Below, in pieces: positions 4,702 through 21,794 of a stretch of DNA of 60,040 nt (the first letter of the stretch is position 1; the number at the start of each line of letters is the position of its first letter). The stretch is from positions 1-60,040 of the IMG/VR virus record IMGVR_UViG_3300025154_000101, one strand, 5' to 3'. The translations under genes and the position numbers were made by a program. The DNA comes from a virus. Taxonomy: Duplodnaviria; Caudoviricetes. The notes beneath the pieces were generated by a model. The model was not told where the DNA came from and did not search any database. It saw only the letters and a program-made list of their open reading frames with translations.

Positions 4702-5469
4702 ATGATGATGCGATTCCGAGAGAGGAATACGAAAATGGACAGGTTTTGGAATGACGGTCCCGGATCACCATATGAGGATAGCAAATACTTATTTGAAAGC
4801 GAGGATGAAGAAATGAACGAACACGAACAGCAGCAACAAGCACTAACCATCACCCAAAAAGTACAGGCCTTTACTGTAAAAACGCAGCAGGATTATGACA
4901 ACGCCACCGAGGTCTGCAAGGACATAAAGGCTAAAATCAACAAGGCAGAGGAAGAATGGAAGCCATTAAAGGCCAAGGCACACGAAGCGTGGAAAGCTCT
5001 ATGCGCAAAGGAAAATGAAATGCTTGATAAATTCAGGCAGGCAGAGAAGATAATCAAAGACAAAATGACCACCTTCCAACGTCAACTGATGGAGGAACAA
5101 AGGATTCAGCGAGAGGAACAGGAACGTTTCCGCAAAGAGGAAGCAGACAGACTTATGAAAGCAGCGGAGGAAGCGCAGCAGGAAGGCATGGTGGAACATG
5201 CTGACTATTTAGTTGAGGAAGCTGCAAAAGCAGAGGTAATGAGGTTTGAGCCGATAAAGCAAGTTAAGACAGCGGGAACGGCGACACGCATAGTCTGGAA
5301 AGCAAGAGTCACCAACGATGCAATAGTCCCAGCCTACGCAAATGGCATGTGTATACGCAAGGTTGACGAGGCTGTGTTGAATAAGCTTGCAGGATTGGTA
5401 AAAGGCAAGTCAGATATACCCGGCGTGGAGTTTTACGAAGATGTCAGCATCGCAGTATCGAGGGGGTAG
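4702..5469 (+). CDS. Coiled-coil recombination-module protein (Gp157/Gam-like C-terminus); likely start 4813
   Basis: Long coiled coil ending in IPGVEFYE; directly upstream of ERF. Confidence 0.55.
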   Translation: MMMRFRERNTKMDRFWNDGPGSPYEDSKYLFESEDEEMNEHEQQQQALTITQKVQAFTVKTQQDYDNATEVCKDIKAKINKAEEEWKPLKAKAHEAWKALCAKENEMLDKFRQAEKIIKDKMTTFQRQLMEEQRIQREEQERFRKEEADRLMKAAEEAQQEGMVEHADYLVEEAAKAEVMRFEPIKQVKTAGTATRIVWKARVTNDAIVPAYANGMCIRKVDEAVLNKLAGLVKGKSDIPGVEFYEDVSIAVSRG

Positions 5470-5471
5470 TT

Positions 5472-6236
5472 ATGAATCTATATCAAAAGCTTATCGAAAC
5501 CAGGAAAGAAGTCCCGTACTTGCAAAAAGAAAATCAAGGCGAACAGTACAAATATGTTTCCAGTAGTCAGGTATTAGGCAATATTAAGGCCAAGCTTGAT
5601 GAATTAGGCATACTGCTGATTCCATCTGTTAAAAGCCATTTAGTGACAACTTCATCAATAGAATTTTTCAATGAAAAAAACAACGTCACAAAGCGCACAA
5701 ACACATACTTTACCGAACTCGACATGATTATGACATGGGTAAATGCTGAAAAGCCAGATGAAAAAATAGAGTGTTCATGGTACGGTCAAGGCGTGGACAT
5801 AGCAGGTGAAAAGGGAGTAGGCAAAGCCCTTACATATGCAGAAAAATACTTCATGTTGAAATTCTTCAACATTCCAACCGACAAAGATGATCCTGATGCT
5901 TTTCAGAAGCGCATGGACGATGAAGACCCACCGAAACAACCTCAAAAGCCACAGAATGCCCCACAACAGACTAAACCTGTCGGCAATGACAATCATGCAC
6001 CGGAACACTCACAAGCAGCCAAAAACGATCCTAGCGACCTTGAAAAGCGTGCGTCAAAAATATACTTTACCATGACAGGCAATAAAGAAGGGCAGAACGG
6101 TTGGCCTTTGGAACAATACAAGCAATGGCTGAAGGACTTCAAAGAAGCTGGCGCAATATCAACAGACTATGGTAAGAAATGGACAGAAAAAGATATAGCG
6201 TTCCTTGAGCTACAGCTTGTCGAGCTACCTTTCTGA
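5472..6236 (+). CDS. ERF-family single-strand annealing protein
   Basis: GKALTYAEKYFMLKFFNIPTDKDDPD ERF signature. Confidence 0.9.
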   Translation: MNLYQKLIETRKEVPYLQKENQGEQYKYVSSSQVLGNIKAKLDELGILLIPSVKSHLVTTSSIEFFNEKNNVTKRTNTYFTELDMIMTWVNAEKPDEKIECSWYGQGVDIAGEKGVGKALTYAEKYFMLKFFNIPTDKDDPDAFQKRMDDEDPPKQPQKPQNAPQQTKPVGNDNHAPEHSQAAKNDPSDLEKRASKIYFTMTGNKEGQNGWPLEQYKQWLKDFKEAGAISTDYGKKWTEKDIAFLELQLVELPF

Positions 6237-6459
6237 TGCAAGTACAGCAATTCCCCAAGCCGACACACAAGCGAAAAGTTGAGAAGGTACAGAAGATAAA
6301 GATGCAGGAACGCCGGGAATGTTGGGTAACGCACCAGATTACGGCGTACATTTCAATCCTGTGTTTGACTTGGAGTTGAAACAGGAGGGACAGAGGCGGT
6401 TTGAGGCGAGGTATTCAAGAGATGAATTCTACAGGATATTTGGGAGGTATTACACATGA
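6236..6459 (+). pseudogene. Frameshifted or internally deleted small phage Zn/HNH-like gene
   Basis: N-terminal frame (MQVQQFPK...RECWVT) and C-terminal frame (YGVHFNPVFDLELKQEGQRRFEARYSRDEFYRIFGRYYT) are out of frame; the central His/Cys core is absent. Confidence 0.55.
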
Positions 6460-7124
6460 GTTGCGAAATAGAACATCCAATTTTATTCAGTACAGCAATG
6501 ATAAAGGCAATTCTGGACGGTAAAAAGAGCATGACAAGAAGGATCATAAAATCTAAAACGCTAGACAAATTTATAAATCTTATCTGGAATCCAAACGAGA
6601 ATGTTTGTTATTGCCCATATGGTAAGGTTGGCGACATTCTCTGGGTTAGGGAAACGTGGGGGAATTATTCTTATGATGAACCAGAAAGCAATGTAGTATA
6701 TTTCATGTATCGTGCGGATTACCCAGATAATGCAAAAGGTTATTGGTATGAGCCGGAACAAATTAACTGGTGTGACCTTCCACGTTGGCGCCCCTCTATC
6801 CACATGCCACGTAAGGCCTGCCGTATTCGCTTAAGAATCACTGACGTTAAGGTTGAACGGTTGCAGGACATTACAAAGGAGGATGCAAAGGCGGAGGGAA
6901 TTGCTGAAACAGAAATCGTAAAAGCCTATAATTCTATTTTTAAACATAAAGGCGGTTTCGCGGATGATGTTGCAAAGCAAGAATTAACAAGGCTTTTCGG
7001 TACAGACAATGAATATATTTACACATTCAAAAACTTATGGAACTCCATAAATTATGACCGTGGCTATGGTTGGGACTTGAATCCATGGCTATGGGTAGTA
7101 AGTTTTGAGAGGGTATCTCCATGA
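6456..7124 (+). CDS. ASCH/PUA-like phage protein
   Basis: PILFSTAMIKAILDGKKSMTRR, GDILWVRETW, WRPSIHMPR, NPWLWVVSF motifs. Confidence 0.75.
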   Translation: MSCEIEHPILFSTAMIKAILDGKKSMTRRIIKSKTLDKFINLIWNPNENVCYCPYGKVGDILWVRETWGNYSYDEPESNVVYFMYRADYPDNAKGYWYEPEQINWCDLPRWRPSIHMPRKACRIRLRITDVKVERLQDITKEDAKAEGIAETEIVKAYNSIFKHKGGFADDVAKQELTRLFGTDNEYIYTFKNLWNSINYDRGYGWDLNPWLWVVSFERVSP

Positions 7125-7660
7125 AAGCACTATGCAACGCCATCCGCATCTCCTACAACGAGCACAACCATCCTGAACTCACTTTATCCCTCACCTGTTC
7201 CCGGCATGAGATAGCCACCGATCTGCAGGAACTAAAGGATGTGTTGGCAAAAGGTAAACTGCTAAGTGTGGAGATAAAGCAACACAGGGTAAAACGATCA
7301 CTAGACGCCAATGCCTACATGTGGGTCCTTCTCTCCGAACTTGCCGCAGCCCTTCACACCACCAAAGACGAACTATACCTTGTCATGCTTGAGCGGTACG
7401 GCGTATTTACTCATGTAGTAGTCAAGCCCAATGTAGTTGACAGGGTAAAGCAGGAATGGCGAACAGTCAGGGAGTTGGGAGAGGTGACAATAAAGGGGCA
7501 GACAGGGATACAGTTACAATGCTTTTTCGGTTCTTCAACCTACGACACCGCAGAAATGGCAAGGCTGATTGATGGAGTGGTCAGCGAATGCAAGGAAGTA
7601 GGCATAAACACTTTGACACCGGCAGAGCTTGCGCTGTTAAAACAGGAGTGGGGTAAGTAG
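7121..7660 (+). CDS. NinB-like recombination protein
   Basis: KRSLDANAYMWVL and GSSTYDTAEMARLIDGVVSECKEVGI motifs. Confidence 0.7.
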   Translation: MKALCNAIRISYNEHNHPELTLSLTCSRHEIATDLQELKDVLAKGKLLSVEIKQHRVKRSLDANAYMWVLLSELAAALHTTKDELYLVMLERYGVFTHVVVKPNVVDRVKQEWRTVRELGEVTIKGQTGIQLQCFFGSSTYDTAEMARLIDGVVSECKEVGINTLTPAELALLKQEWGK

Positions 7661-7686
7661 TGCGTAATTTAAAAATAATGCGAAGT
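7659..7686 (+). repeat. dif-like site a
   Basis: AGTGCGTAATT-TAAAAA-TAATGCGAAGT, overlapping the upstream stop codon. Confidence 0.65.
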
Positions 7687-7699
7687 AAAGAGGGCTGTT

Positions 7700-7846
7700 A
7701 TGAGAAATAAGTTTAAGGGAACTTGCTACAGATGCGGCAAAGAAGTTTTGCCAGGTAAAGGTCATTTTGAAAAGATCATTGGTACTAAAAATAGTTGGAG
7801 AGTCCAACACGCAGAGTGTGCAATAAAATTCAGAGGTAAAAAATAA
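7700..7846 (+). CDS. 48-aa Cys/His protein (cassette between sites a and b)
   Basis: Translated by hand: MRNKFKGTCYRCGKEV...VQHAECAIKFRGKK; RBS present. Confidence 0.7.
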   Translation: MRNKFKGTCYRCGKEVLPGKGHFEKIIGTKNSWRVQHAECAIKFRGKK

Positions 7847-7873
7847 TAGCGCGTAATAGGGATAATCCGCAGT
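7846..7873 (+). repeat. dif-like site b
   Basis: ATAGCGCGTAA-TAGGGA-TAATCCGCAGT, at the stop codon of 7700..7846. Confidence 0.65.
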
Positions 7874-8117
7874 AGCGACAATAGGGGAAAGTGAAATGGA
7901 AACTTTAGACGGTAGATTAGTTGAAGCAGACGAACCGAGATTTTTATTAGACCCCGACAGTGTATGTTATGGCTGTCAATTCTATGAATCAGGGTTATTT
8001 GATGATGAATGTACAACACCTGAACCATGCATACAAGGAAACATGAACGGTTACAGGATGGATGGATAATTTCTCATACTCCGGTGGGGCTTCGTGCCCC
8101 GCCAGTTTTAAGGCACT

Positions 8118-8157
8118 TGTGGATAATGTGGATAAAAAGGTAATTATCTGTGGATAA
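8118..8157. promoter_or_regulatory. Three perfect DnaA boxes
   Basis: TGTGGATAA (reverse complement of TTATCCACA) at 8118, 8127 and 8149, upstream of the replication initiator. Confidence 0.75.
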
Positions 8158-8246
8158 AACTTCAAGAACTCAGTAAAATCAACACTTTCAGGGCTTTATA
8201 TGATAAAATACATGCAGAACACATATTCGAGAATGGGGGTGAAAAA

Positions 8247-9110
8247 TTGCCCGGACCACAAAAAGAAAATGGATATACACCGATAGCCAATGAAATAATG
8301 GAACAGTTATACAAGCTTCCTTTCAATGGCACACAATTCAGGATTATTCTTGCGGTTTTTAGGTATACTTATGGATTCAGCCGAAAGGAGCACGAACTGT
8401 CAGAAACTTTTATTTCGTCATGTGTAAGCGCCAGTAGGCGGAATGTTCAAAGGGAGATAAAGGCTTTAATTGCTATGGATATCCTGAAAGTAACCAAACA
8501 AGCGTCATTTAATGCCACAAGGGAACTCGCTTTCAACAAGCACTATGAGGTATGGCGAATTAGTCACCTGGCGGCGAACTCGTCACCTGGTGACAAACCT
8601 GTCACCACAGGTGGCGGCGAACTCGTCATCACCCCAAGCAGCGATAAATTAAAAGAAAAAAACTTGCAGCCCAGCGGTGACAATGTTTTTGATGGGGTGG
8701 TGGCGAATCCGTCATCAGGCGGCGAACAGACCGCCCAAGATAAACAATATATTAAAACAAAATATAAAACAAAAGAGCAAAAACCTAAAAAGCAAAATCC
8801 TAACACCATATTGATAAACTTTTTTTGCGACGAGTACAAAATCAAATTTGGTAACCCGTATATGCCGAATTGGAAAAGGGATGGAGCCATAATAAAAGAT
8901 TTCCTTGACAATGAGTATACAGCAGACTACATGAAAACTTACATCACATGGTTCCTCAACTCCAACGATGAATACCTTAATAAAGTCGGGTACTCAATAC
9001 CACTACTTAAAACAAGACTAGAAAAATACCACCTAAAGCAAAAGAAAGAGTTGAGCAAATACCCAGATCAATCAAATTACTTTAAAGGAGGCAGCAATGT
9101 ACCCGAATAA
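8247..9110 (+). CDS. Phage replication initiator (lambda O-like N-terminus)
   Basis: ENGYTPIANEIME...QFRIILAVFRYTYGF motif; internal iterons; upstream of DnaB. Confidence 0.85.
   Translation: MPGPQKENGYTPIANEIMEQLYKLPFNGTQFRIILAVFRYTYGFSRKEHELSETFISSCVSASRRNVQREIKALIAMDILKVTKQASFNATRELAFNKHYEVWRISHLAANSSPGDKPVTTGGGELVITPSSDKLKEKNLQPSGDNVFDGVVANPSSGGEQTAQDKQYIKTKYKTKEQKPKKQNPNTILINFFCDEYKIKFGNPYMPNWKRDGAIIKDFLDNEYTADYMKTYITWFLNSNDEYLNKVGYSIPLLKTRLEKYHLKQKKELSKYPDQSNYFKGGSNVPE
8552..8736 (+). repeat. Iterons, putative replication origin inside the initiator gene
   Basis: GGCGGCGAACTCGTCA twice plus variants (TGGCGAATTAGTCA, TGGCGAATCCGTCA, GGCGGCGAACAG); GGTGACAAACCTGTCACC palindrome; A-rich tract follows. 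Confidence 0.7.
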
Positions 9111-10362
9111 TATTGACCTTGAAAAAAGTGTGCTAGGCTGCTTGTTGTCTGGGAAAATAGACAGAATTATTGAACTTAGCGAAAATGACTTCTTAAATGA
9201 ATCAACTAAATTCGTTTACAAAGTAATAGCTTTCATGTACGAAAAGCAGCAGCCAATAGACACTGTAACCGTGTCCGACAAAATGAGCAAGCGCCTGCCA
9301 GATTCCCTTAAATATGTGACCGACCTAGTTAACGGTATCCCAACACCAGAAAACATAAGCCACTACGTAACCGAGTTGCAAAAATACACTATGGCAAGGG
9401 AAGTCATAAAAGCGTCGGATAAAGCAAGAGAAATTGTAGAGACAGGGAATTATGAAAATGCAGTATGCCTAAAAAACGATGTGCAACAGTTGTTTGACAT
9501 AAAGACTTTCATTAAAAGGAATGACGATTACAAGATATCCAGCATAGTAAAACGGGCCAGGAGAGACATGGAGGAAAAGTCTATTGCGAAGGATAATGGG
9601 AAGCTTTTTACCGGGTACTACGACCTTGACAGGATAACCGCAGGACTTCACCCAGAGGAGTTCACATTGATTGCCGCCCGGCCCGGCGTAGGGAAAACAG
9701 CCTTTGCACTTCAACTCATGCTTAAATTGGCAGAAAAAGGAAATAACTGTTTGTTTGTATCTCGCGAAATGTCAAGCTTGCAGATAGTAAAAAGAATCCT
9801 TTCCAGTGTATCCGAAGTAGATGGGCATAAAATGAGGCTATGCAGAACCCTTGACGATGCAGATTGGCAGAAAATAGGAATAGCTGAGGATAAAATAGAA
9901 ACCCTTCCTGTCGAAATAAACGACAAGCTTTCAACCGTCCAGGAAATCCGGGCATACTGCCGAGAACTCAAAGTGCAAGATAGACTTGACTTGCTGATAG
10001 TTGACTATCTGCAGCTTTGCAAGTCAATGAAAAGAACAGAGGGACGGCGGCAGGAAGTCGAAGATATATCCCGGACATTAAAAGAAATGTCCTTGGAATT
10101 TGGAATCCCAGTTATAGCGCTCAGCCAACTTTCAAGGGAAAGTGTAAATTCAGGAGAACCAGAACTACATCACTTAAGGGAATCTGGGAGTCTCGAACAA
10201 GATGCCGACAATGTTATTTTCCTTCACGTTCCGAAAGACACTAACGAACAAGCAGAAATGTTCGAAATTAAAATTATAGTAGCAAAACAGCGTAACGGAG
10301 CCACAGGGTACATAATGCTGAGATATTATAGGAGGACATTTAGACTATGCAACTTAATGTGA
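9097..10362 (+). CDS. dnaB: Replicative DNA helicase, DnaB family
   Basis: Walker A AARPGVGKT, IVDYLQL, ALSQLSR, LRESGSLEQDAD, AKQRNG. Confidence 0.95.
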   Translation: MYPNNIDLEKSVLGCLLSGKIDRIIELSENDFLNESTKFVYKVIAFMYEKQQPIDTVTVSDKMSKRLPDSLKYVTDLVNGIPTPENISHYVTELQKYTMAREVIKASDKAREIVETGNYENAVCLKNDVQQLFDIKTFIKRNDDYKISSIVKRARRDMEEKSIAKDNGKLFTGYYDLDRITAGLHPEEFTLIAARPGVGKTAFALQLMLKLAEKGNNCLFVSREMSSLQIVKRILSSVSEVDGHKMRLCRTLDDADWQKIGIAEDKIETLPVEINDKLSTVQEIRAYCRELKVQDRLDLLIVDYLQLCKSMKRTEGRRQEVEDISRTLKEMSLEFGIPVIALSQLSRESVNSGEPELHHLRESGSLEQDADNVIFLHVPKDTNEQAEMFEIKIIVAKQRNGATGYIMLRYYRRTFRLCNLM

Positions 10363-10652
10363 TTTCCAGAGAGCAGGCCGCGCTCGAATTCATAGACAGT
10401 ACTTATACGATCGCCATTGCACAAATGAGGGATATGCCATACAAGGAGTATCTCAAAACAGCACATTGGCAACATTTCAAACAAGAGACGTTGAAGTTTT
10501 ATCGATACACATGCCAATTATGTGACGGAAAGAATAAGCAATTAGATGTGCATCACAGAAACTATAACTATCTGGGATGTGAAACTTTCAATGATGTAAT
10601 CGTGATCTGCGACGATTGCCACGGTATACATCACGGGAAGGAGGTCACATGA
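10347..10652 (+). CDS. Small HNH endonuclease
   Basis: CQLC...LDVHHRNY...CDDCHGIHH. Confidence 0.8.
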   Translation: MQLNVISREQAALEFIDSTYTIAIAQMRDMPYKEYLKTAHWQHFKQETLKFYRYTCQLCDGKNKQLDVHHRNYNYLGCETFNDVIVICDDCHGIHHGKEVT

Positions 10653-10800
10653 AAGCACTCACACCTGAACAAATAGAGCAAGTCCGGAAGGAATATGCAA
10701 GCGGCAAGACAGATATGGAACTGGCAATGAAATACCTAGTGCATTACAGGACAATACAGAATTACTGCAAGGGGATAAAGCGGAAGAGGAGGGCGGGGTA

Positions 10801-11616
10801 ATGGAATTATACAGAGATCACTTCCAGAATTACAAAAGGTACAGCATTCCCAAGGCCCAACTCATCATAGCAGACATTCCCTTCAACCTCGGCAATTGGG
10901 CTTATGCTTCAAATCCAAGCTGGTATAAAGACGGCGACAACAAAAACGGTGAAAGCGAGCTTGCAGGGAAAGCTTTCTTTGACACCGACAAAGACTTCAA
11001 GATACCAGAATTTATGCACTTTGTATCAACAATGCTGAAGAAGGAGCCCAAGGAATCAGGACAAGCAGGCTGCATGATTGTGTTTTGTGAATTTGAACAG
11101 CAGTTTATACTAATAGAAGAAGGCAAGAAATACGGCTTTAATCACTACATAAACCTTGTTTTTAGAAAGAATTATTCGGCGCAGGTCTTAAAAGCCAACA
11201 TGAAAGTAGTCGGGAACTGTGAATATGCAATGCTTTTTTACAGGGACAAGCTGCCGAAATTCCGCAACAATGGCAAAATGATATTCAACTGTGTGGATAT
11301 TCCTGAAAACCAGTGTATGGACTATGAGCGTGATACTGAAACGCCAAAATTGCATCCAACTCAGAAGAGCATTCATGTTTTGAAAAACCTTATCAACATT
11401 TTTACAGACGTTGGGGACGTAGTAATCGACCCATGCGCAGGAAGTGGCGTGACCCTACTGGCAGCGGAGCAGTTGGGCAGGAAGTCGTATGGATTTGAAA
11501 TCAAAAAGGTATTCGTTGACGGCTTCAATTCCAAGCTGGCGCAGAACGTGCAGACTACCATATTTCAGCAGGAAGCAAGGCAAAAGCAACCGCAAAATCA
11601 AACAAGTCTATTTTGA
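10801..11616 (+). CDS. DNA methyltransferase (N4/N6 type, DIPF variant motif)
   Basis: IADIPF motif IV, HPTQK, DPCAGSG motif I. Confidence 0.85.
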   Translation: MELYRDHFQNYKRYSIPKAQLIIADIPFNLGNWAYASNPSWYKDGDNKNGESELAGKAFFDTDKDFKIPEFMHFVSTMLKKEPKESGQAGCMIVFCEFEQQFILIEEGKKYGFNHYINLVFRKNYSAQVLKANMKVVGNCEYAMLFYRDKLPKFRNNGKMIFNCVDIPENQCMDYERDTETPKLHPTQKSIHVLKNLINIFTDVGDVVIDPCAGSGVTLLAAEQLGRKSYGFEIKKVFVDGFNSKLAQNVQTTIFQQEARQKQPQNQTSLF

Positions 11617-11630
11617 AAGGAGGGTTTAAA

Positions 11631-12323
11631 TTGTTAGAGGTCAACAGGATTTACAATATGGATTGTATTGAGGGAATGAAGCTTATACCTGACAGCAGTG
11701 TTGATTTGATAGTTACGGACCCTCCGTATTTAATCGGCTACAAGACAAACAGAAGGCAAAACAAGGAGCATGCTTTTTGCAGCACCATTGCAAATGACGA
11801 TAATCCCGAGTTGATTGTGAATTATATTGCAGGTTGCTACAGGATAATGAAAGACGATACAGCTATGTATATGTTTTGTAGCTTTGATAAAGTGGATTTT
11901 TTCAAGCAGGAGCTTTCTAAATTCTTCGCAATAAAAAACATGATTATATGGGTTAAGAATAGCCATACAGCAGGGGACTTAGAAGCCCAATTTGGAAAAC
12001 AGTATGAAATTATATTCCTCGTTAACAAAGGGCGGGCACAAATAAGAGGTAAGCGCATTACGGACATATGGAGGGAGGAAAGGGTTGTTGGGAATGAGCA
12101 ACTCCATCAAAATCAAAAGCCGCTATACCTTATCGAAAAGTGCATTTTAAAACACAGTGACGAGGGGGGGCTTGTGTTTGATGGATTTATGGGAAGTGGC
12201 ACAACGGCGGTTGCGGCTCATAACTTCAAGCGCAATTTCTTAGGGTTTGAATTGGACAAGGGTTATTATGACATAGCACAAAAGAGGCTTGATGCAGTAA
12301 TGGCACAAGTAAGCATGTTTTAA
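11631..12323 (+). CDS. DNA methyltransferase (beta-class N4/N6)
   Basis: TDPPY, HQNQKP, DGFMGSGTT. Confidence 0.92.
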   Translation: MLEVNRIYNMDCIEGMKLIPDSSVDLIVTDPPYLIGYKTNRRQNKEHAFCSTIANDDNPELIVNYIAGCYRIMKDDTAMYMFCSFDKVDFFKQELSKFFAIKNMIIWVKNSHTAGDLEAQFGKQYEIIFLVNKGRAQIRGKRITDIWREERVVGNEQLHQNQKPLYLIEKCILKHSDEGGLVFDGFMGSGTTAVAAHNFKRNFLGFELDKGYYDIAQKRLDAVMAQVSMF

Positions 12324-12540
12324 CTAAAACTGTAAAGGAGAGGGAGAAGGATGAAAGGTTTATTTTATTTTAGCTTTAACAAAACAGCATGGAGGCAAAA
12401 AACTTTAGCAATAGGCATCGGCAGATATGTTATAGACGGTTGTGATTATATACCTAGATATTATTTGGCGATAGGGATAAATCTTATATTTTGGTATCTG
12501 ACTTTCGCCGTGAGATTATCAAGTAAGGAGGCTGAGTAGA

Positions 12541-12897
12541 TTGAGTGAGAGTCAAGAACAGCAAGCCCTATTCCAATGGGCAGCAATAGCTGAAAGACAA
12601 CATCCAGAACTGCGCCTACTACACGCCATACCAAATAGCGGTAAACGCCACATCGTAACAGCGGTCAGGATGAAAGCAGAGGGGCAAAAGGCAGGAGTGA
12701 GCGATATATTCCTTCCGGTAGCAAGAAAAGGCTTCCATGGACTGTATATCGAGTTAAAAGTAAAGGGTGGCAGACTGACAGAGAAGCAAAAAGAATGGAT
12801 ACAGCTAACCATATTGCAAGGTTACATGTCAATTGTATGCGTAGGGTGGGAAGATGCCAAGATGGAAATCGAGGGATATTTGGAGGGTGGAAAATGA
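12541..12897 (+). CDS. VRR-NUC domain nuclease
   Basis: ESQEQ...HAIPN...AGVSDIFL...LYIELK...QKEW. Confidence 0.88.
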   Translation: MSESQEQQALFQWAAIAERQHPELRLLHAIPNSGKRHIVTAVRMKAEGQKAGVSDIFLPVARKGFHGLYIELKVKGGRLTEKQKEWIQLTILQGYMSIVCVGWEDAKMEIEGYLEGGK

Positions 12898-13177
12898 AAC
12901 CACTACAGTACATAACAGCCTTAATACTCACCATTGCTTTAATACTTGTCCTATTTGCCACAAATCACGCAAAAACGAATACAGACACGTCCAAAATAAA
13001 AATTAGCTTCACGGGGCAAATAGAGCCTGTGAAAGTGGAATACGGAGAATTGCTGGAGAGGTTGGAGGAATTGGCAAGGGAGAATCTTTTACTAGAGCAA
13101 GAGAACAACGATTTGAAACATCAAGCGGAGGCGTTTGGGTGGCTAAAGAAAAGTATGGATAAGGAGGGAGTGAACCC

Positions 13178-13564
13178 ATGAGCGATTTCGGAGATTACAA
13201 ACACGTTAAGACAAGAAAACCACATCACTGTGTGTATTGTGGCAGAACTATACCAGCAGGCACAAATGCCAGAAACTATCACGGATTATGGCAAGGAGAC
13301 TGGCAGAATTGGTACACTTGCGGATTCTGTGAAAAGTTTGTTGAGCCTCAGTATGGCGAACCTGGCGAAGGTATTTCCGGAGACGAATTCTCAGAATGGC
13401 TTCGAGACTCAGATCATTTCAGATGTAAAAAATGTGAAAACAGCCATTACAGACACCACAATGGCCACAATTGGATTGATCTGACACATATTGAAATGGC
13501 GTGTGGAGATTGTGGCAATGAATGGATTACTGAGATACCAATTGAAAGCGAGGAAAACTTATGA
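13178..13564 (+). CDS. Cys-rich (zinc-binding) hypothetical protein
   Basis: Four CxxC pairs; RBS GGAGGG. Confidence 0.6.
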   Translation: MSDFGDYKHVKTRKPHHCVYCGRTIPAGTNARNYHGLWQGDWQNWYTCGFCEKFVEPQYGEPGEGISGDEFSEWLRDSDHFRCKKCENSHYRHHNGHNWIDLTHIEMACGDCGNEWITEIPIESEENL

Positions 13565-13930
13565 AACCTAAACCAGCTAAAATATACGTCAAAATCCCTC
13601 GCAAAATAACGCACATCCTAAAGCCCGATAGCGACATAACATACTGCGACATGCGGGTATTCGTGGACGAGAAGCATATACACGCCAAGAAGCCGAGAGG
13701 GTTATTGTGTGAGATTTGTAGAGAGGAAAGCGAGGTTGATGAGATATGAAAATCCGCAGATATCAAAAAGCCCATCTATGCAAGCATATAAAGCGCACGG
13801 GCAATGTACTTGTCTTTGTAAAGCCTACGTGTCCAACAGTGCAAAAATGGCCCAGTGTTGATTATGTGGCTAAAGCGCACTGTAGAGCTTGTGAATATTT
13901 TGAATTAAAGGAAAGCGAGGTTGAGAAGGA

Positions 13931-14416
13931 ATGACAGAGGAACAGAGAAAAAACCGCAACGAAACAAGTATAAAAGTACTTACAGATATGTGCGAGGAAC
14001 AGAAAATGTATTACAAATACGACAACAACAGCCTTAACCGCAGATTTGAATACGATTTAAAAATAATGGCTTTGTCGGTAGCTATTGAATCTATAAACAC
14101 TACCGAAGCCTTACAACAGGAACTTGACAGCTTGCGGAAGTGCTATGATGTGACAAATGAGAGCTGGAAGCAACAACAGCAGGAGATAGAACAGTTGAAA
14201 GCCTTTACTCCAAAGCACGGTGAATGTATTTATGATGCTGAACAGATACGGCTGATAATGGCACAAAACAAGCGACTACAGGCACAGGCGGGAAAGGCGA
14301 TAGAGGTTTTAACCGAATGGGAAACGTTAATTGTGAGCGGGCAATTTAAACATGACAGATGCACCAATAATTTAATCCATGAAGCCCTTTCCTTCCTGAA
14401 AGCAGGTGACATATGA
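13931..14416 (+). CDS. Coiled-coil hypothetical protein
   Basis: Overlapping start/stop with neighbours in the operon. Confidence 0.55.
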   Translation: MTEEQRKNRNETSIKVLTDMCEEQKMYYKYDNNSLNRRFEYDLKIMALSVAIESINTTEALQQELDSLRKCYDVTNESWKQQQQEIEQLKAFTPKHGECIYDAEQIRLIMAQNKRLQAQAGKAIEVLTEWETLIVSGQFKHDRCTNNLIHEALSFLKAGDI

Positions 14417-14676
14417 CACCGCAACAGCAAAAAGCAATTATCACACGCCTAGTCCATAGTCAACTGATCTCTGAAAGAGTAGAGATAAACCGCCGGGCAA
14501 TCACAGCCGTAATAACGGCAGTAGCGGTATCTTTGCATGATAAATATGACTGGAAACCAGATGAAATTAACAAGCTAGTTAAACTGACGGTAAATGAGTT
14601 TGAGGCTATAAACGAGAAGTATTTGACACTGGATGAATTGCTACAAATGGCAGAGGATATGGGGATAGTGATGTAG
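14413..14676 (+). CDS. Hypothetical protein
   Basis: Overlapping start/stop; RBS present. Confidence 0.55.
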   Translation: MTPQQQKAIITRLVHSQLISERVEINRRAITAVITAVAVSLHDKYDWKPDEINKLVKLTVNEFEAINEKYLTLDELLQMAEDMGIVM

Positions 14677-14700
14677 CACAAAATATAAATAATGCGCAAT
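14673..14700 (+). repeat. dif-like site c
   Basis: GTAGCACAAAA-TATAAA-TAATGCGCAAT, overlapping the upstream stop codon. Confidence 0.6.
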
Positions 14701-14750
14701 AAATCCATGTATATTAGTGGATTATGATGTAAGGAAATGGAGATAAAAGA

Positions 14751-14930
14751 ATGGGCAAAATTACGCAAATGGCGTTCAATCGGAAAGAAGCTTCTCAGTA
14801 TCTTGGAATTTCAGAAAAGACACTTGATAAGGCGCTGCAATCCGGGGAGATAAAATTTCGAAGGATCGGCAAGGCAATGCTGATACCAAAGGTGGAACTG
14901 GATCGGTTCTTGGAGGGAGATAGGATATGA
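14751..14930 (+). CDS. Excisionase-like HTH_17 protein (59 aa, absent from the ORF track)
   Basis: Translated by hand: MGKITQMAFNRKEASQYLGISEKTLDKALQSGEIKFRRIGKAMLIPKVELDRFL. Confidence 0.8.
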   Translation: MGKITQMAFNRKEASQYLGISEKTLDKALQSGEIKFRRIGKAMLIPKVELDRFLEGDRI

Positions 14931-15220
14931 GTATATTTTTTAAGATTTCAAGTGATGCAAAGATGGGCGTTGATACCGAGACTGGAGAACCCTGCCCAGC
15001 TTATATGAAGATAGCTGGATTTGATTTTGCAGAAGGAACACCCGAAGAGGACATAAAAAAAGCAGTATTGACATTGCTTCCCAAAGACATGATTCAACCT
15101 GAACACCTAACCATAATCACTGAAAAAGATTATATGGAAAGCACCGGTGAAGATGACTCAGATCAGGATATTGAGGATGAGGACAATTATTCTGACTATG
15201 ACGAAGAATTCGAAGAATAA
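14927..15220 (+). CDS. Acidic-tailed hypothetical protein
   Basis: RBS GGAGGG; very acidic C-terminus. Confidence 0.6.
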   Translation: MSIFFKISSDAKMGVDTETGEPCPAYMKIAGFDFAEGTPEEDIKKAVLTLLPKDMIQPEHLTIITEKDYMESTGEDDSDQDIEDEDNYSDYDEEFEE

Positions 15221-15239
15221 GTAAAGACGACATGACGAT

Positions 15240-15267
15240 ATTACAGAAAATAAAAATAATGCGAAGG
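15240..15267 (+). repeat. dif-like site d
   Basis: ATTACAGAAAA-TAAAAA-TAATGCGAAGG. Confidence 0.65.
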
Positions 15268-15276
15268 AGAGAGGAT

Positions 15277-15459
15277 ATGAAAAAATACAAATTGGAATTC
15301 ATACTTAGTGAAAAGGGTCTTGCTGTTAATGGCGAAAATGAAGGATTTGAACCATTAGAGTTGTTGGGACTACTTTCGTGGAAAAAACAAGATATTGAAA
15401 ACCAACTTTTTAACGGCATCAAACCTGATATCATTTCAAGAAAAGTTATAACTGAATAA
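15277..15459 (+). CDS. 60-aa hypothetical protein (cassette between sites d and e)
   Basis: RBS GAGAGG before ATG 15277. Confidence 0.65.
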   Translation: MKKYKLEFILSEKGLAVNGENEGFEPLELLGLLSWKKQDIENQLFNGIKPDIISRKVITE

Positions 15460-15485
15460 TTCACATAATCAGGATAATGCGAAAG
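15458..15485 (+). repeat. dif-like site e (best-conserved copy)
   Basis: AATTCACATAA-TCAGGA-TAATGCGAAAG; the arms form an imperfect inverted repeat. Confidence 0.7.
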
Positions 15486-15948
15486 AGGATAAGCAGGAGG
15501 TGAGGGGTTTGGCATTGGCTGATTATAAAATTTGGTTTGAAGCAGAATATAAACATCCGCCCGGAATGAAATGTATCGAATCGTTCCTCCGGCTTTATCC
15601 GCCCAAAGAGTATGATCCGACAGTGGAAAAAGTTAGTTATATTGTGCCGGAAGAATTTTGGAGAGAAAACCCATTAGACGGGTGAGGGAGGTAATCAATT
15701 GAATTTTTGTAAGTGTGGGAGCATAACAACCTTTGGCGTATGTAGCAACAAGCATTGTCCCGAGACAAACAGAGAGGCTACGGAATTGATAATAGACGGT
15801 ACGGAGTATAGATTTAAAGAACCGGTGACACGTAAAAAGGCTGTAGAATTAAAGCAGGCAGGATCAAAACTAATAATTAAGCAGCCGACCCCGATCAAAG
15901 AAAATGAGCACAAGATATGGGTAAATACTCCAACGTGGTGAGGTAACT

Positions 15949-16659
15949 ATGGGAATGACAGAGAAGGACCCGCGCCAAATTGCATATATAGCCCTTCTGG
16001 TAGCAATTACATGGTATAAGTTGATAGATTCTGAACAAGCGTTACGAATTGCGCGTGGGAGATCATCTGCTAAACCGGGGAGGAAACTCACGCCGGAGCT
16101 TCGGGAACAGATTATGAAACTTACCGAGAATCCAAATTTCAGGACATTCAACGGGATAGAGAAGAAATTTAAGATAAATCGATTTGACATTATAGAGAGT
16201 GAGGGTAAATGGCAAATGATAAAAATAGACAGCCTTATAAACAGAATCATGGTAGCTTTAATAAATTCTACAGAGCAGACAATTAAACAAGACGTAATTC
16301 CTATTTTAAAAATTATCAAAAAGCTATGCACAGAATGCGCGGCGCTCGAATGTGAGAAATGTACGGCAAACAGAATAATGTGCGGAAAGCTTACTTTTTG
16401 CGACAAGATAATGGAAGTAGAACCAACCTTGGAAGAATCAAAAGAACTACTGGAAAACCTTAAAATAAGCATCGTGCGACAACTGTGCGACAACTGTGCG
16501 ACATATACAGATCTAGGTGGAAGGGCAGTAAAAAGAAGTGTTCGAATAGATGAAAAAGTTATAGAAAAAATTGATAAATACCTTGAATACCATCCTCAAT
16601 TAAAAAACCAGGATTTTTATAGCTTTGCATCTTTGGAATACATGGAAAGGCATAAGTAA
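15949..16659 (+). CDS. Hypothetical protein with Cys clusters and possible C-terminal ribbon-helix-helix
   Basis: C-terminal KRSVRIDEKVIEKIDKY...FASLEYM. Confidence 0.5.
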   Translation: MGMTEKDPRQIAYIALLVAITWYKLIDSEQALRIARGRSSAKPGRKLTPELREQIMKLTENPNFRTFNGIEKKFKINRFDIIESEGKWQMIKIDSLINRIMVALINSTEQTIKQDVIPILKIIKKLCTECAALECEKCTANRIMCGKLTFCDKIMEVEPTLEESKELLENLKISIVRQLCDNCATYTDLGGRAVKRSVRIDEKVIEKIDKYLEYHPQLKNQDFYSFASLEYMERHK

Positions 16660-16685
16660 TGCAGTAAATAAAAATAATGCGTAGG
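16658..16685 (+). repeat. dif-like site f
   Basis: AATGCAGTAAA-TAAAAA-TAATGCGTAGG, overlapping the upstream stop codon. Confidence 0.65.
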
Positions 16686-16695
16686 AGGGTTTTAT

Positions 16696-17004
16696 GTGAG
16701 CAAGTTTGATTATAGCACTTTTTATGGTGGGTATGACGAATTGGCAGTAAGCAAAGAAAAGTACACCAAAGAACAGGCGATAGAAATTGCAAAAGTAGAA
16801 TTAGAATCTTTTAAAAAGCCTTATTCAATAGCAGTCGGAGAAGCGTATGTAAGACATAGAGCAGGCAGAAATGAAGATGGAGAGCCCTGCGTGGGGTGGT
16901 GGCTTGAATATAAAAACAGTAATAGAAGCTGCCCTGTGTGGTGTTTTCACAAGGAGCGGAAACAGGAAAGATTCCCAAACTACGATTATATCGAAGTCAC
17001 ATAA
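16696..17004 (+). CDS. Hypothetical protein (cassette between sites f and g)
   Basis: RBS GGAGGG adjoining site f; stop codon inside site g. Confidence 0.7.
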   Translation: MSKFDYSTFYGGYDELAVSKEKYTKEQAIEIAKVELESFKKPYSIAVGEAYVRHRAGRNEDGEPCVGWWLEYKNSNRSCPVWCFHKERKQERFPNYDYIEVT

Positions 17005-17021
17005 CCAGGAAAATACGCAAA
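16994..17021 (+). repeat. dif-like site g
   Basis: AAGTCACATAA-CCAGGA-AAATACGCAAA. Confidence 0.65.
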
Positions 17022-17039
17022 AAAAGAGAGCCAGAGCAT

Positions 17040-17615
17040 TCAACTCTGACTCTCAAATTGTCTTATATACCTGTACAACTGTGACCGGCTTTTCCCGATT
17101 AACCTTGCAAACTCTTCCCCGATAATCTCACCCAGTTTGAATTGGCTGTAATACTTTTCAAATTTTTCTGGCAACTCAACCGCAGGCCGGCCGAACCAAA
17201 CACCTGTTTTGGTGCCGTTTATCTTTGCGCTGGCGACTCCTTCCCGGATGCGGTCGTTTATCAGCCCCCTTTCCATTTCAGCCACAGCGCCCAGGATGGT
17301 CAAAAGAAATTGGTACATGTGGCCGCTGGTGTCAAAGCCCTCCTTGATAAAGTGGACGGTTACGCCCTGCTCCCGGAAGTATCGGCACAGTTCCCGGAGG
17401 TCGTCAACATTACGGCCTAATCGGGAAATTGCTTCACAGTAAATGTGATCGCCTGCTTTCGCTTCAGCCTTAAGCTTAATCAGCGCTGGCCGGTCTGCAT
17501 TTTTACCGCTCAATTTATCAATGTATCTGCGGTCTAATTTGATTCCATCCATGCAAAGTTCCTGACGTTTTTCGTTCTGATGGGTAGTGGATACACGCTC
17601 ATAACTATAATTCAT
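17040..17615 (-). CDS. Small serine recombinase (resolvase/invertase)
   Basis: YERVSTTHQ catalytic Ser motif, SRLGR, AVAEMER...GRP, C-terminal HTH. Confidence 0.93.
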   Translation of the reverse strand: MNYSYERVSTTHQNEKRQELCMDGIKLDRRYIDKLSGKNADRPALIKLKAEAKAGDHIYCEAISRLGRNVDDLRELCRYFREQGVTVHFIKEGFDTSGHMYQFLLTILGAVAEMERGLINDRIREGVASAKINGTKTGVWFGRPAVELPEKFEKYYSQFKLGEIIGEEFARLIGKSRSQLYRYIRQFESQS

Positions 17616-17827
17616 TGCAATACCTTCCCTTCAAATTCCACACAAGCAGCCACTACTCCACCTGGTTTCCTTAGTGTTTCAAGTGGGCAAATTGATACTT
17701 CCATAATTCCTCCTTGACATATTTTTTATATGGGTATAAAATAAAACTGTCGGAATAACCGGGCAAGCCCCGGATTCACGTTGGATTGAAATTTAATTAT
17801 ATACTATTGCTTAAGAGCAAGGAGAGA

Positions 17828-20926: not shown

Positions 20927-20947
20927 AAAAGGGGCTTTTTAGCCCCT
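20926..20947. terminator. Terminator hairpin between convergent genes
   Basis: AAAAA-GGGGCT-TTTT-AGCCCC. Confidence 0.6.
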
Positions 20948-21237: not shown

Positions 21238-21248
21238 TTTAAATCCTC

Positions 21249-21794
21249 CTATAAATTCAAATTAATATAGATGTTTTTGATATCGTCCTGGGTAATACCG
21301 ATGTACCGCAAAGTTATGGATGGCGCGCTGTGATTAAACGCCTGCTGCAATAATGTAATGTCAATACCCTGTTTGTAAGCCCAATAACCGAAAGTCTTTC
21401 TTAATGTATGGGTTCCAATGTTGATATCAAGCCTTGCTTTTTTTGCGGCATCATTAAGTATTGTCCATGCTTGAACTCTTGATATAGGTTGATTGACCCC
21501 CTTCCGGCTGTAGAATATAAAATCATTGTCTTTCAGTTTTCCATTGCCCAAATAGGTTTTTACCGCTTTGCAGGTTGTGTCATTAAGTGTTATGATTCTT
21601 TGCTTGCCTGTCTTAGATTCTTTCAACTTAATAGATTGTCCTGCAACATCTTTCACTCTTAAACCCAACAGATCAGATATTCTAAGCCCTGTATTAATGC
21701 CCAGTGTAAATAAAAGCAAGTCTCTCTCATTTGTAAAGCTCTTTTTCATTTTCTCAATCTGTCTCTTATCCTTGATTGCTCCGACCTCATTCAT
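21249..21794 (-). CDS. Small catalytic-domain-only tyrosine recombinase
   Basis: TGLRISD (R), K, HTLRKTF (HxxR), NHS, TLRYIG (Y). Confidence 0.92.
   Translation of the reverse strand: MNEVGAIKDKRQIEKMKKSFTNERDLLLFTLGINTGLRISDLLGLRVKDVAGQSIKLKESKTGKQRIITLNDTTCKAVKTYLGNGKLKDNDFIFYSRKGVNQPISRVQAWTILNDAAKKARLDINIGTHTLRKTFGYWAYKQGIDITLLQQAFNHSAPSITLRYIGITQDDIKNIYINLNL

What the first reader, a model, noticed from the sequence alone, without database searches (positions are those of the whole stretch)
7659..17021. Family of dif/Xer-like sites bracketing single small genes: candidate phage gene-cassette system
Seen: seven 28-bp sites share an 11-6-11 layout: a 7659 AGTGCGTAATT-TAAAAA-TAATGCGAAGT; b 7846 ATAGCGCGTAA-TAGGGA-TAATCCGCAGT; c 14673 GTAGCACAAAA-TATAAA-TAATGCGCAAT; d 15240 ATTACAGAAAA-TAAAAA-TAATGCGAAGG; e 15458 AATTCACATAA-TCAGGA-TAATGCGAAAG; f 16658 AATGCAGTAAA-TAAAAA-TAATGCGTAGG; g 16994 AAGTCACATAA-CCAGGA-AAATACGCAAA. 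All face the same way and sit at gene junctions, six of them overlapping a stop codon. Pairs a-b, d-e and f-g each enclose exactly one short RBS+ORF with no room for its own promoter. Opening sites have spacer TAAAAA and a conserved gene-side right arm; closing sites have a spacer ending in GGA and a conserved gene-side left arm. Established: the left arm resembles the E. coli dif XerC arm (GGTGCGCATAA), and 11-6-11 is tyrosine-recombinase geometry, as in pdif modules. Inference: these genes are mobile cassettes inserted by a Xer-like recombinase, giving an integron-like way to shuffle phage accessory genes. The enzyme could be host Xer or the phage recombinase at 21249-21794.
Basis: partly seen in the sequence, partly recalled or inferred. 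Interest (0 to 1): 0.88.

Follow-up and report, generated by a model that had tools for sequence, protein, structure and literature searches.

The report
Dif-like sites bounding phage gene cassettes
A few uncultured temperate phages mark the borders of small accessory genes with a shared 28-base symmetric DNA site that resembles the bacterial dif site; it looks like a portable gene-boundary element for shuffling genes, but the enzyme and mechanism are not proven.

Summary
Six (a-f) form a real family; g is a weak member. The window is a whole virus record, a temperate phage. Two other IMG/VR phages share only its integrase/CI/Cro module, and I found eight more sites in them, laid out the same way. 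An 'opening' form has spacer TAAAAA and right arm TAATGCGAAGG, 9-14 nt before a start codon. A 'closing' form has left arm AGTTCACATAA and spacer TCAGGA, at a stop codon. Six opening/closing pairs each enclose one small ORF. The 11-6-11 dyad is real, and the left arm matches published dif XerC arms in up to 10 of 11 bases.

The Xer-insertion mechanism is not supported. In 2 of 2 informative allele comparisons the alternative allele has no hybrid site, and site-gene-site comes and goes as a block with imprecise ends. Opening and closing spacers differ. The 100%-complete relative has no tyrosine recombinase except its tRNA-Leu integrase.

My best reading, at 0.4, is PeSL-like portable junction elements shuffled by short-homology and illegitimate recombination, with an unknown dimeric protein binding the dyad core. 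Xer-type cassette exchange remains possible at about 0.25.

The parts
7659..7686 (+). site a, opening type (AGTGCGTAATT TAAAAA TAATGCGAAGT)
   Evidence: It starts on the stop codon of the NinB-like gene and ends 13 nt before the ATG at 7700.
7700..7846 (+). enclosed 48-aa ORF with CxxC...HxxC, no family hit
7846..7873 (+). site b, closing type, degenerate (spacer TAGGGA)
   Evidence: (3 of 100 simulations reach its leave-one-out score). It is not retrieved by the closing-site model trained on the other phages.
14673..14700 (+). site c, opening type (spacer TATAAA), 50 nt before the HTH_17 gene at 14751-14930
14751..15220 (+). two ORFs between c and d: an HTH_17 protein of 59 aa and a 97-aa acidic protein
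15240..15267 (+). site d, opening type. Contigs from the source sample break inside it.
   Evidence: In one search, table 8, the left contig ends at 15257 in runs X1 and X3, and the right contig starts at 15234 or 15248.
15277..15459 (+). enclosed 60-aa ORF, no family hit
15458..15485 (+). site e, closing-type left arm and spacer with an opening-type right arm; the most dif-like site in the window
   Evidence: (16 of 22, rank 2). One search shows loose ends at 15457, 15493 and 15450.
15509..16659 (+). three ORFs between e and f: 15500/15509-15685, 15699-15941 and 15949-16659
16658..16685 (+). site f, opening type
16696..17004 (+). enclosed 102-aa ORF (phrog_13489, function unknown)
16994..17021 (+). 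site g, weak closing-type member. Its right arm runs into the A-tract of the terminator.
   Evidence: 91 of 100 simulations reach its score; 9.0 bits; rank 3, 12.7 bits
17026..17054 (.). bidirectional terminator-like hairpin that ends the early operon
   Evidence: 12 pairs; z = -3.15
4702..7660 (+). the phage's own recombination genes: exonuclease 4702-5469, Erf-like annealing protein 5472-6236, NinB/Orf-like 7121-7660
21249..21794 (-). 181-aa Xer-like tyrosine recombinase with the catalytic domain only.

Best explanation
The sites are conserved, dyad-symmetric 28-bp boundary elements of small accessory-gene units. They sit in the early operons of a few temperate phages that share one integrase/CI/Cro module.

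There are two forms. The opening form has spacer TAAAAA and right arm TAATGCGAAGG and ends 9-14 nt before a start codon. The closing form has left arm AGTTCACATAA and spacer TCAGGA and sits at the stop codon. Where units abut, one site serves both.

Between relatives, the thing gained, lost or replaced is site-gene-site as a block, with imprecise outer ends at Shine-Dalgarno-like sequences. Where both genomes keep the sites, the gene between them differs.

I therefore read them as PeSL-like portable junction elements. They travel with accessory genes and give short shared homology at which the phage's own Exo/Erf/NinB system, plus occasional illegitimate joins at ribosome-binding sites, can swap or insert genes.

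Shown: the family, its position, its dyad, and the block-wise presence or absence.
Inferred: homologous and illegitimate recombination as the motor.
Unknown: which dimeric protein binds the dyad core and what the core does for expression. A Xer-type recombinase is one candidate.
For: Family and position:
- There are 15 sites in 3 phages. All lie on the coding strand of early operons, and six opening/closing pairs each enclose one ORF.
- In opening sites the spacer (0.93 mean pairwise identity) and right arm (0.77) are conserved more than the left arm (0.51). In closing sites the left arm (0.62) and spacer (0.72) are conserved more than the right arm (0.52).
- Seven of eight opening sites end 9-14 nt before the likely start codon (plus my reading of the sequence).

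Block-wise gain and loss:
- At the SSB junction, G002 has the SSB stop codon, one base, then the ATG of the 97-aa gene, with no site. G001 has opening site, 78-aa ORF and closing site there, flanked by a perfect 16-nt direct repeat (0 of 300 shuffles reach it). The flanking genes are orthologous (E 6e-24 and 4e-40).
- On a backbone that is 76-83% identical, G002 has O3, a 99-aa ORF and C3, where G001 has an unrelated 109-aa ORF and no site. Homology stops at column 6 of O3 and resumes at column 24 of C3.
- At the helicase/SSB junction both phages keep opening-like and closing-like sites, but the ORF between them does not align.

Other support:
- The phage encodes an exonuclease, an Erf-like protein and a NinB-like protein.
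- In the source-sample contigs a record matches only 15457-15493 (site e) with unlike flanks, and the phage's own contigs break inside site d in both runs.
- There is a precedent: PeSL motifs flank small ORFs in T4-type phages and mediate shuffling (PMC2839356, abstract).
Against: - This reading does not explain the dyad symmetry or the dif-likeness. Some dimeric protein should bind the sites.
- Unlike PeSLs, the sites hold no sigma-70-type promoter. There is no -35 element, the first base of the -10-like hexamer is never T in the window's sites, and the promoter scan found 44 sites against 43.7 expected. They also hold no stem-loop: fold z-scores run from -0.7 to +1.4.
- Exact identity between sites within the window is only 16 nt, which is short for homologous recombination.
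- Only two allele comparisons were informative, and they are between distant relatives.
- The evidence rests on contigs laid at 80% likeness. A 37-nt partial match can come from another organism, as the tool itself warns.
- No recombination product was seen directly.
Confidence: 0.4

Rival explanations
1. The sites are core sites for a Xer-type tyrosine recombinase, either host XerC/D or a Xer-like enzyme. Cassettes are exchanged by site-specific crossover in the spacer. Because the two spacer classes are incompatible with each other, exchange would run opening-with-opening and closing-with-closing between genomes, which amounts to recombinase-mediated cassette exchange.
For: - The sites have two imperfect inverted 11-bp arms around 6 bp, and the dyad axis is the best of 37 centres tried. 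This is the structure described for tyrosine-recombinase targets (PMC1914069, section 6).
- The left arms of e and of G1-s2 match the XerC arm of the Bordetella pertussis dif printed in PMC2731167 Table 1 in 10 of 11 bases.
- The sites rank 1-2 for dif-likeness in each of the three genomes.
- The gene-side arms are the conserved ones, as in hybrid att sites.
- The two spacer classes are conserved across phages: TAAAAA in 6 of 8 opening sites.
- Contigs end at columns 18 and 9 of site d.
- The window encodes a Xer-like recombinase.
Against: - The alternative alleles hold no hybrid site in 2 of 2 comparisons. The unit's ends fall at column -4 or 7 on the left and column 30 or 23 on the right, so they are imprecise.
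- The right arm starts TAATG in 13 of 15 sites. Every dif 28-mer that I read has TTATG there, in what that paper calls the best-conserved inner part.
- Column 25 is variable here but is a conserved A in dif.
- No single site exceeds the best dif-likeness found in simulated sequence: mean maximum 15.9 of 22, against 16-17 for the best sites.
- G001 has sites but no recombinase other than Int, and the attP core of Int is a tRNA-Leu segment unlike the sites.
- Three or four directly repeated sites with identical spacers (a, d, f) bracket the replication genes, so an active recombinase would delete them.
- The opening-site right arm doubles as, or abuts, the ribosome-binding site.
Confidence: 0.25
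2. The sites are operators for a dimeric regulator, which could be phage-encoded and shared by the three phages or could be a host protein. It would control transcription read-through or translation of accessory genes, in the manner of stoperators or start-associated sequences. Under this reading the sites have no role in recombination.
For: - The sites share one orientation relative to transcription and sit in short gaps between a stop and a start codon.
- They have dyad symmetry.
- The three phages share CI, Cro and a MazE/AbrB-like DNA-binding protein at 3216-3476.
- Stoperators are many repressor sites spread across a phage genome (PMC9283540, start of the abstract in the search listing).
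Against: - The candidate CI/Cro operators (CCCAAAYRGGATAA at 57562, 57823 and 55684(-), with a variant at 57503) differ from the sites apart from a shared CAGGATAA in e.
- Two discrete spacer classes tied to the opening and closing roles are not expected for a single operator type.
- The sites move with the genes and lie at mosaic breakpoints.
- No regulator has been tied to them.
Confidence: 0.2
3. The opening sites are promoters, with a -10-like element NATAAT followed by GCG. They would drive the enclosed genes as in morons or PeSLs.
For: - Columns 16-21 read [AG]A[TA]AAT in all seven window sites.
- The simple promoter scan flags site d, as ATGACG-17-AATAAT with 9 of 12 matches.
Against: - There is no -35 element at the other sites.
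- The first base of the hexamer is never T.
- In G002 the hexamer reads AAGAAT, AACTAT or AACAAT.
- The scan as a whole is at chance level: 44 found against 43.7 expected.
- The phage has canonical TTGACA/TATAAT-type promoters elsewhere, for example at 17714-17742.
- No RNA data could be had.
Confidence: 0.05

Closest known systems
PeSL mobile regulatory cassettes of T4-type phages (PMC2839356, abstract read; PMC4122927, search listing only)
   Same: Short conserved motifs sit in intergenic junctions and flank small genes of unknown function. Insertions, deletions and replacements between related phages occur at or next to them. The phage's own recombination is the proposed motor.
   Different: PeSLs are a strong sigma-70-like promoter plus a terminator stem-loop. 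These sites have neither. They are instead a 28-bp dif-like dyad in two forms. In PeSL exchange an empty locus keeps one motif, whereas here 2 of 2 alternative alleles have none.
Chromosomal dif and the Xer recombinases (PMC2731167, passages read; PMC1914069, section 6 read)
   Same: The sites are 28 bp in an 11-6-11 layout with imperfect inverted arms. The left arm matches published XerC arms in up to 10 of 11 bases.
   Different: There are many copies per genome, all inside an operon. The right arm begins TAATG instead of TTATG. The spacers fall into two conserved classes. No cognate enzyme has been shown.
dif (pdif) modules of Acinetobacter plasmids (PMC13141974, abstract read)
   Same: Accessory genes are bounded by dif-like sites, and modules are shuffled between replicons.
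   Different: From recall, pdif modules are bounded by sites in inverse orientation. Here all sites are direct. [quoted passage not shown] The replicon here is a tailed phage, not a plasmid.
IMEX elements integrated at dif (search-listing abstracts: 10.64898/2026.06.12.731946 and PMC6744903)
   Same: A unit is flanked by direct dif-like hybrid sites in which the inward-facing arms belong to the element.
   Different: IMEXs integrate into the host chromosome's dif site. Here the alleles without the unit have no site.
Integron gene cassettes
   Same: Promoterless single genes sit in one orientation, separated by recombination-type sites.
   Different: There is no integron integrase: NCBIfam integron-integrase hits are far below cut-off. 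From recall, attC sites are longer and fold into hairpins, and these sites do not fold.
Stoperators and start-associated sequences of mycobacteriophages (PMC9283540 and PMC3203893, search listings only)
   Same: Many copies of a short oriented motif lie at gene junctions or just before start codons.
   Different: From recall, stoperators match the repressor's operator and are asymmetric. Here the candidate CI operators differ from the sites, and the sites are dyads.
Morons (recalled from the lambdoid-phage literature; no paper read)
   Same: An extra gene inserted between two genes of an operon is gained and lost as a block.
   Different: From recall, morons bring their own promoter and terminator. 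These units bring two dyad sites instead.

Membership tests
Xer/dif-type tyrosine-recombinase core site | Two roughly 11-bp imperfect inverted repeats around a 6-8 bp central region | tested here: met
   The dyad axis at column 14.5 is the best of 37 centres, with 40 of 84 pairs. Arm complementarity is 32 of 66 against 16.6-18.4, and 40 of 88 in the 8 new sites. The definition is taken from PMC1914069, section 6.
Xer/dif-type tyrosine-recombinase core site | Arms resemble the XerC and XerD binding arms of chromosomal dif | tested here: inconclusive
   Against the Bordetella dif printed, e scores 16 of 22 (rank 2), G1-s2 17 of 22 (rank 1) and G2-O2 16 of 22 (rank 1). Other sites score 11-13 of 22, and the simulated maximum averages 15.9. 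The right arm's inner TAATG differs from the TTATG of every dif 28-mer that I read. The dif of the unknown host was not available.
Xer/dif-type tyrosine-recombinase core site | Partner sites share the central region | tested here: not met
   Opening spacers are TAAAAA or TATAAA. Closing spacers are TCAGGA, TAGGGA, CCAGGA, TCAGAA, TGAGGA or TCAAGA. The condition is met only within a class.
Xer/dif-type tyrosine-recombinase core site | An allele without the insert keeps one (hybrid) site | tested here: not met
   This failed in 2 of 2 informative comparisons: the SSB/97-aa junction of G002, and the G001 allele at the O3-C3 locus.
Xer/dif-type tyrosine-recombinase core site | A cognate recombinase is present and acts on the site | not testable with these tools
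   The host is unknown. The window has a 181-aa Xer-like catalytic domain. G001, which is 100% complete and carries sites, has only Int.
PeSL-type mobile regulatory cassette | Sigma-70-like early promoter in the motif | tested here: not met
   The promoter scan is at chance level, and only site d is flagged weakly. There is no -35 element, and the first base of the hexamer is never T.
PeSL-type mobile regulatory cassette | Terminator stem-loop in the motif | tested here: not met
   Fold z-scores for a-f run from -0.68 to +1.38. Only the terminator after g folds.
PeSL-type mobile regulatory cassette | Motifs flank small accessory ORFs, and indels or replacements between relatives map to them | tested here: met
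   There are six pairs in three phages. Breakpoints lie at the site edges.
Integron cassette array | Integron integrase with attI, and hairpin-forming attC sites | tested here: not met
   The integron-integrase models score 46 and 28 bits against cut-offs of 265 and 435. The sites do not fold.
Stoperator-type repressor sites | Sites match the immunity repressor's operator | tested here: not met
   The repeats in the cI-cro region (CCCAAAYRGGATAA) are a different sequence. Calling them operators is my inference.

The most novel reading that the evidence does not exclude
A tailed phage lineage uses dif-like sites with two mutually incompatible spacers as a natural recombinase-mediated cassette-exchange system. 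A Xer-type enzyme, from the host or carried by a phage, crosses opening sites with opening sites and closing sites with closing sites between co-resident genomes. Single accessory genes are swapped precisely while the rest of the operon stays intact.
Probability: 0.2. Interest if true: 0.9.

Novelty: new variant of a known kind. Interest (0 to 1): 0.62.

Why it matters
It is well known that phage accessory genes turn over quickly at gene junctions, but the signals that mark those junctions are described for very few phage groups. Here a defined 28-bp element with tyrosine-recombinase geometry and two forms marks the borders of single genes in at least three otherwise different phages. That gives a concrete, searchable handle for three tasks:
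- finding accessory-gene hot spots in uncultured temperate phages;
- testing whether Xer-type enzymes act on tailed-phage genomes;
- asking how a gene can be dropped into a tightly coupled operon without breaking it.

If the Xer reading holds, it would be a new kind of cassette system in phages.

Tried and rejected
Searches for relatives that found little or nothing:
- DNA of 7000-17100 and of 12300-17100 against cultured phages gave no match.
- The DnaB protein matched cultured phages at 35% identity or less.
- A 236-aa protein and the 530-aa late-region protein (23242-24834) found nothing in IMG/VR.
- DnaB found one 4.4-kb contig in IMG/VR, one distant MAG in GTDB and one 2.8-kb metagenome contig. 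None of them holds a site.
- Exact site e and an exact 32-mer of 12894-12925 gave 0 hits in IMG/VR.
- BLAST of site e and of G1-s1 against cultured phages gave only chance-level hits, with E of 0.09 or more.
- Of the 84 IMG/VR stretches that hold TAAAAATAATGCGNAG (80 listed), only L004 is a true relative. L016 and L035 score well, but by their third-position differences they lie in coding sequence.
- My pattern left out two columns, so its 26 hits are meaningless and the last viral scan was wasted (checked).

Ideas rejected:
- RNA element: no fold and no Rfam match.
- Sites as integrase core sites: the attP core is a tRNA-Leu-like segment.
- The 48-aa ORF of the window and the 78-aa ORF of G001 as homologues: BLASTP E = 0.19, so not shown.
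- No cassette ORF of one phage has a homologue in another.
- Flanking direct repeats are significant only for the G001 unit. The other seven tests gave P = 0.01 to 1.0.
- The look-alike at 4665 lies inside an ORF.
- No N-terminal SAM-like domain lies upstream of the 181-aa recombinase.

Other points:
- No RNA holder was listed among the sequencing runs.
- Runs X5 and X6 hold only short pieces.
- Complex prediction, the structure tools and the large protein searches were not used, because no claim here rests on them.
- Supplements were not opened. Table S2 of PMC2731167 and the body of Table 1 of PMC1914069 (dif sites of Firmicutes, not held in the text) might allow a comparison with dif sites closer to the host's.
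- PMC94974 is not held.

Full report
**What the window is.** The 60,040 bases are a whole IMG/VR-type virus record, rated 74% complete by CheckV. It is a temperate phage.
- A 404-aa tyrosine integrase lies at 55887-57101(-), a CI-like repressor at 57094-57438(-) and a Cro-like gene at 57604-57858.
- The early operon runs rightward from cro, across the record's ends, to a bidirectional terminator at 17026-17054.
- That operon holds an exonuclease, an Erf-like annealing protein, a NinB-like protein, a replication O-like protein, DnaB, two DNA methyltransferase-like genes (my reading of the sequence; no family search was run on them) and many small ORFs.

**The observation.** All seven 28-mers read as quoted.
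- A PWM built from a-f scores those six at 30.0-34.4 bits. The next best of about 120,000 positions scores 12.4. The maximum in simulated windows averages 12.5.
- In leave-one-out tests, c, d, e and f beat all 100 simulated windows. Three simulations reach the score of b, 15 reach that of a, and 91 reach that of g. Site a shares an exact 16-mer with d.
- TAAAAATAATGCG is one of only five 13-mers that occur three times in the window.
- The heptamer TAATGCG alone is not enriched.
- Six of the seven sites touch the upstream stop codon. Pairs a-b, d-e and f-g each enclose one ORF.

**The layout is a real dyad.** I first thought the arms lacked symmetry, but the test says otherwise.
- Complementary positions between the arms sum to 32 of 66 for a-f, against 16.6-18.4 (sd about 3.5) when the left arms are drawn from the genome, from intergenic DNA or from positions after stop codons.
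- The sites do not fold as RNA (z from -0.7 to +1.4), match no Rfam family and are not sigma-70-type promoters.

**Relatives.** Most searches found nothing close.
- The way in was a PWM scan of the 84 IMG/VR stretches that hold the 16-mer pattern. One of them, L004, has two full sites 280 nt apart on one strand.
- Its record, G001, is 63,335 bp and 100% complete. It shares with the window only the lysogeny module (window 55390-57839 at 81.6% nucleotide identity; Int 87%, CI 83%) and a few small early genes.
- An integrase-based search then gave G002 (42.7 kb) and G003 (11.6 kb, a lysogeny fragment with no sites).
- G001 has three sites and G002 has five, all on the coding strand of the early operon.
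- Models trained only on those eight sites return d, a, f, c as the top four hits of the window. The closing-site model ranks e first and g third, but does not retrieve b.
- The dyad replicates in the eight new sites: 40 of 88 against 2.74 expected per site.

**Two forms.**
- Opening sites (8): left arm variable (0.51 mean pairwise identity), spacer TAAAAA or TATAAA (0.93), right arm TAATGCGAAGG (0.77). Seven of the eight end 9-14 nt before the likely start codon.
- Closing sites (7): left arm AGTTCACATAA (0.62), spacer TCAGGA-like (0.72), right arm variable (0.52). The stop codon of the enclosed ORF lies in or just before the left arm.
- Six opening/closing pairs enclose exactly one ORF of 48-102 aa: three in the window, one in G001 and two in G002.
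- Sites e and G1-s1 combine a closing-type left arm with an opening-type right arm, so abutting units share one site.
- Two sites lie partly in coding sequence. G1-s0 sits in the last codons of a 59-aa ORF, and an ORF reads through G2-O1.

**Likeness to dif.** I compared the sites only with dif sequences printed by a tool (PMC2731167, Table 1).
- Against the Bordetella pertussis dif, e scores 16 of 22 arm positions (rank 2 of all positions in the window), G1-s2 scores 17 (rank 1 in G001) and G2-O2 scores 16 (rank 1 in G002). The left arms of e and G1-s2 match in 10 of 11 bases.
- No single score exceeds what simulated sequence can give (mean maximum 15.9). Other sites score only 11-13.
- The signal is that a family defined without reference to dif supplies the most dif-like 28-mers in three genomes.
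- The right arm differs from dif where dif is best conserved. It begins TAATG in 13 of 15 sites, whereas all the dif sites I read have TTATG. Column 25, a conserved A in dif, is variable here.

**Do the genes move at the sites?** There are three comparisons between G001 and G002.
1. *SSB junction.* In G002 the SSB stop codon is followed after one base by the ATG of a 97-aa gene, with no site. G001 has an opening site, a 78-aa ORF and a closing site between the orthologous genes (SSB 49-52% identity, E 4e-40; 95/97-aa gene 43%, E 6e-24). The insert is flanked by a perfect 16-nt direct repeat that covers the last SSB codons, the stop and the first bases of the next gene (0 of 300 shuffles reach it).
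2. *O3-C3 locus.* On a backbone that is 76-83% identical, G002 has O3, a 99-aa ORF and C3. G001 has an unrelated 109-aa ORF and no site there. Homology stops at column 6 of O3, just after a resident Shine-Dalgarno-like AAGGAG, and resumes at column 24 of C3, at the next AAAGGAGG.
3. *Helicase/SSB junction.* Both phages keep an opening-like and a closing-like site, but the small Cys-rich ORF between them does not align.

So the sites belong to the variable unit. In 2 of 2 informative cases the alternative allele holds no hybrid site. The unit's outer ends fall at different site columns. Where both genomes keep the sites, the content between them differs.

**The source metagenome.** Contigs from the source metagenome add weaker evidence (at 80% likeness).
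- A record matches only 15457-15493 (site e) with unlike sequence on both sides, and another starts matching at 15450.
- A joint links 14409 to 15486.
- The phage's own contigs break inside site d in both runs, while they run straight through a, b, c, e, f and g.
- The tool warns that such partial matches can come from other organisms. Only 24 of 180 loose ends were printed.

**Enzymes.**
- The ORF at 21249-21794 is a 181-aa protein that matches the catalytic halves of the XerA, XerD and XerC models (E 3e-30 to 1e-18, all below cut-off). No N-terminal domain lies upstream.
- It is absent from G001 and G002. G001, which is complete and carries sites, has one tyrosine recombinase only.
- That integrase targets a tRNA-Leu(UAA)-like segment at about 55794-55855, which is conserved in all four phages and unlike the sites.
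- A phage-encoded dedicated recombinase is therefore unlikely. A host Xer enzyme stays possible but untestable, because the host is unknown. The nearest cultured integrases are from Bacillus, Brevibacillus, Paenibacillus and Clostridium phages at about 30% identity.

**Reading.**
- The family, its dyad, its two forms and its link to the borders of small accessory units are shown.
Published pdif reactions involve identical or nearly identical spacers (PMC13141974, abstract).
- The best-supported account (0.4) is that these are portable junction elements that travel with accessory genes, like the PeSL motifs of T4-type phages (PMC2839356, abstract). Genes are swapped by short-homology recombination between sites, for which the phage has Exo, Erf and NinB. 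Whole units are occasionally dropped into new junctions by illegitimate joins at ribosome-binding sites.
- This account leaves the dif-like dyad unexplained. Some dimeric protein should bind it.
- For that reason I keep a Xer-type reading at about 0.25 and a pure regulator-site reading at about 0.2. In the Xer-type reading, exchange would run only between sites of the same spacer class.

**Novelty.** My literature searches for dif-like sites with phage and gene-cassette terms, for pdif modules and for dif consensus papers listed only IMEX elements, plasmid dif modules and chromosomal dif. I saw no report of dif-like sites bounding genes inside tailed-phage operons. This rests on those three searches only. 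I rate the finding a new variant of a known kind, namely phage junction motifs that mediate modular shuffling.

Noticed in passing
window 8118-8157: Three exact copies of TGTGGATAA lie at 8118, 8127 and 8149 in the 177-nt gap upstream of the replication O-like gene (8247-9110). From recall this is the DnaA-box nonamer, so the gap may be the phage origin.
   Followed up: no
window 55794-55855: The segment next to int reads like the 3' half of a tRNA-Leu(UAA) gene, with an anticodon loop, a long variable arm, a T arm and CCA. It is conserved in the window, G001, G002 and G003, and is the likely attP core. ARAGORN finds no whole tRNA in the window.
   Followed up: partly
window 57499-57834 and 55671-55684(-): Repeats of TTCCCAAAYRGGAWAA occur in the cI-cro gap, inside the 3' end of cro and next to attP. 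They are candidate CI/Cro operators. Site e shares CAGGATAA with them.
   Followed up: partly
window 20895-22160: The segment that holds the 181-aa Xer-like recombinase has about three times the contig depth of the rest of the phage in the source runs (58-67 against about 20). Upstream of the gene are 14-nt inverted arms, 93% complementary and 7 nt apart, at 21932-21966, a third copy at 21842-21855, and a perfect palindrome GATAATGC-G-GCATTATC at 21904-21920. This may be a small mobile or invertible module.
   Followed up: partly
window 10787-12302: A contig joint in both source runs skips 1,514 nt that hold the two DNA methyltransferase-like genes (10801-12323). A co-occurring variant appears to lack or replace them.
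   Followed up: no
window 17040-17615 (-): A 191-aa serine recombinase (Resolvase domain, E 1e-31) lies just past the early-operon terminator. Its best NCBIfam hit is the Mpi-type DNA invertase model, far below cut-off.
   Followed up: no
window 33134-33243: A 14-mer, AAGGAACCTGACAA, is repeated three times (33134, 33203, 33227) inside the ORF 32987-33961.
   Followed up: no
window 14701-14750: Between site c and the HTH_17 gene lies a 7-bp inverted repeat with an 8-nt loop (AATCCAT ... GTGGATT region). It may be an operator for that gene.
   Followed up: no
G002 36949-36975 (L106) and G001 (reverse strand) 58476-58503: The same G+C-rich hairpin (GGGAGGGGCAAAGTCCCCTCTC-like) precedes the variable locus in both phages, with or without an opening site after it.
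   Followed up: no
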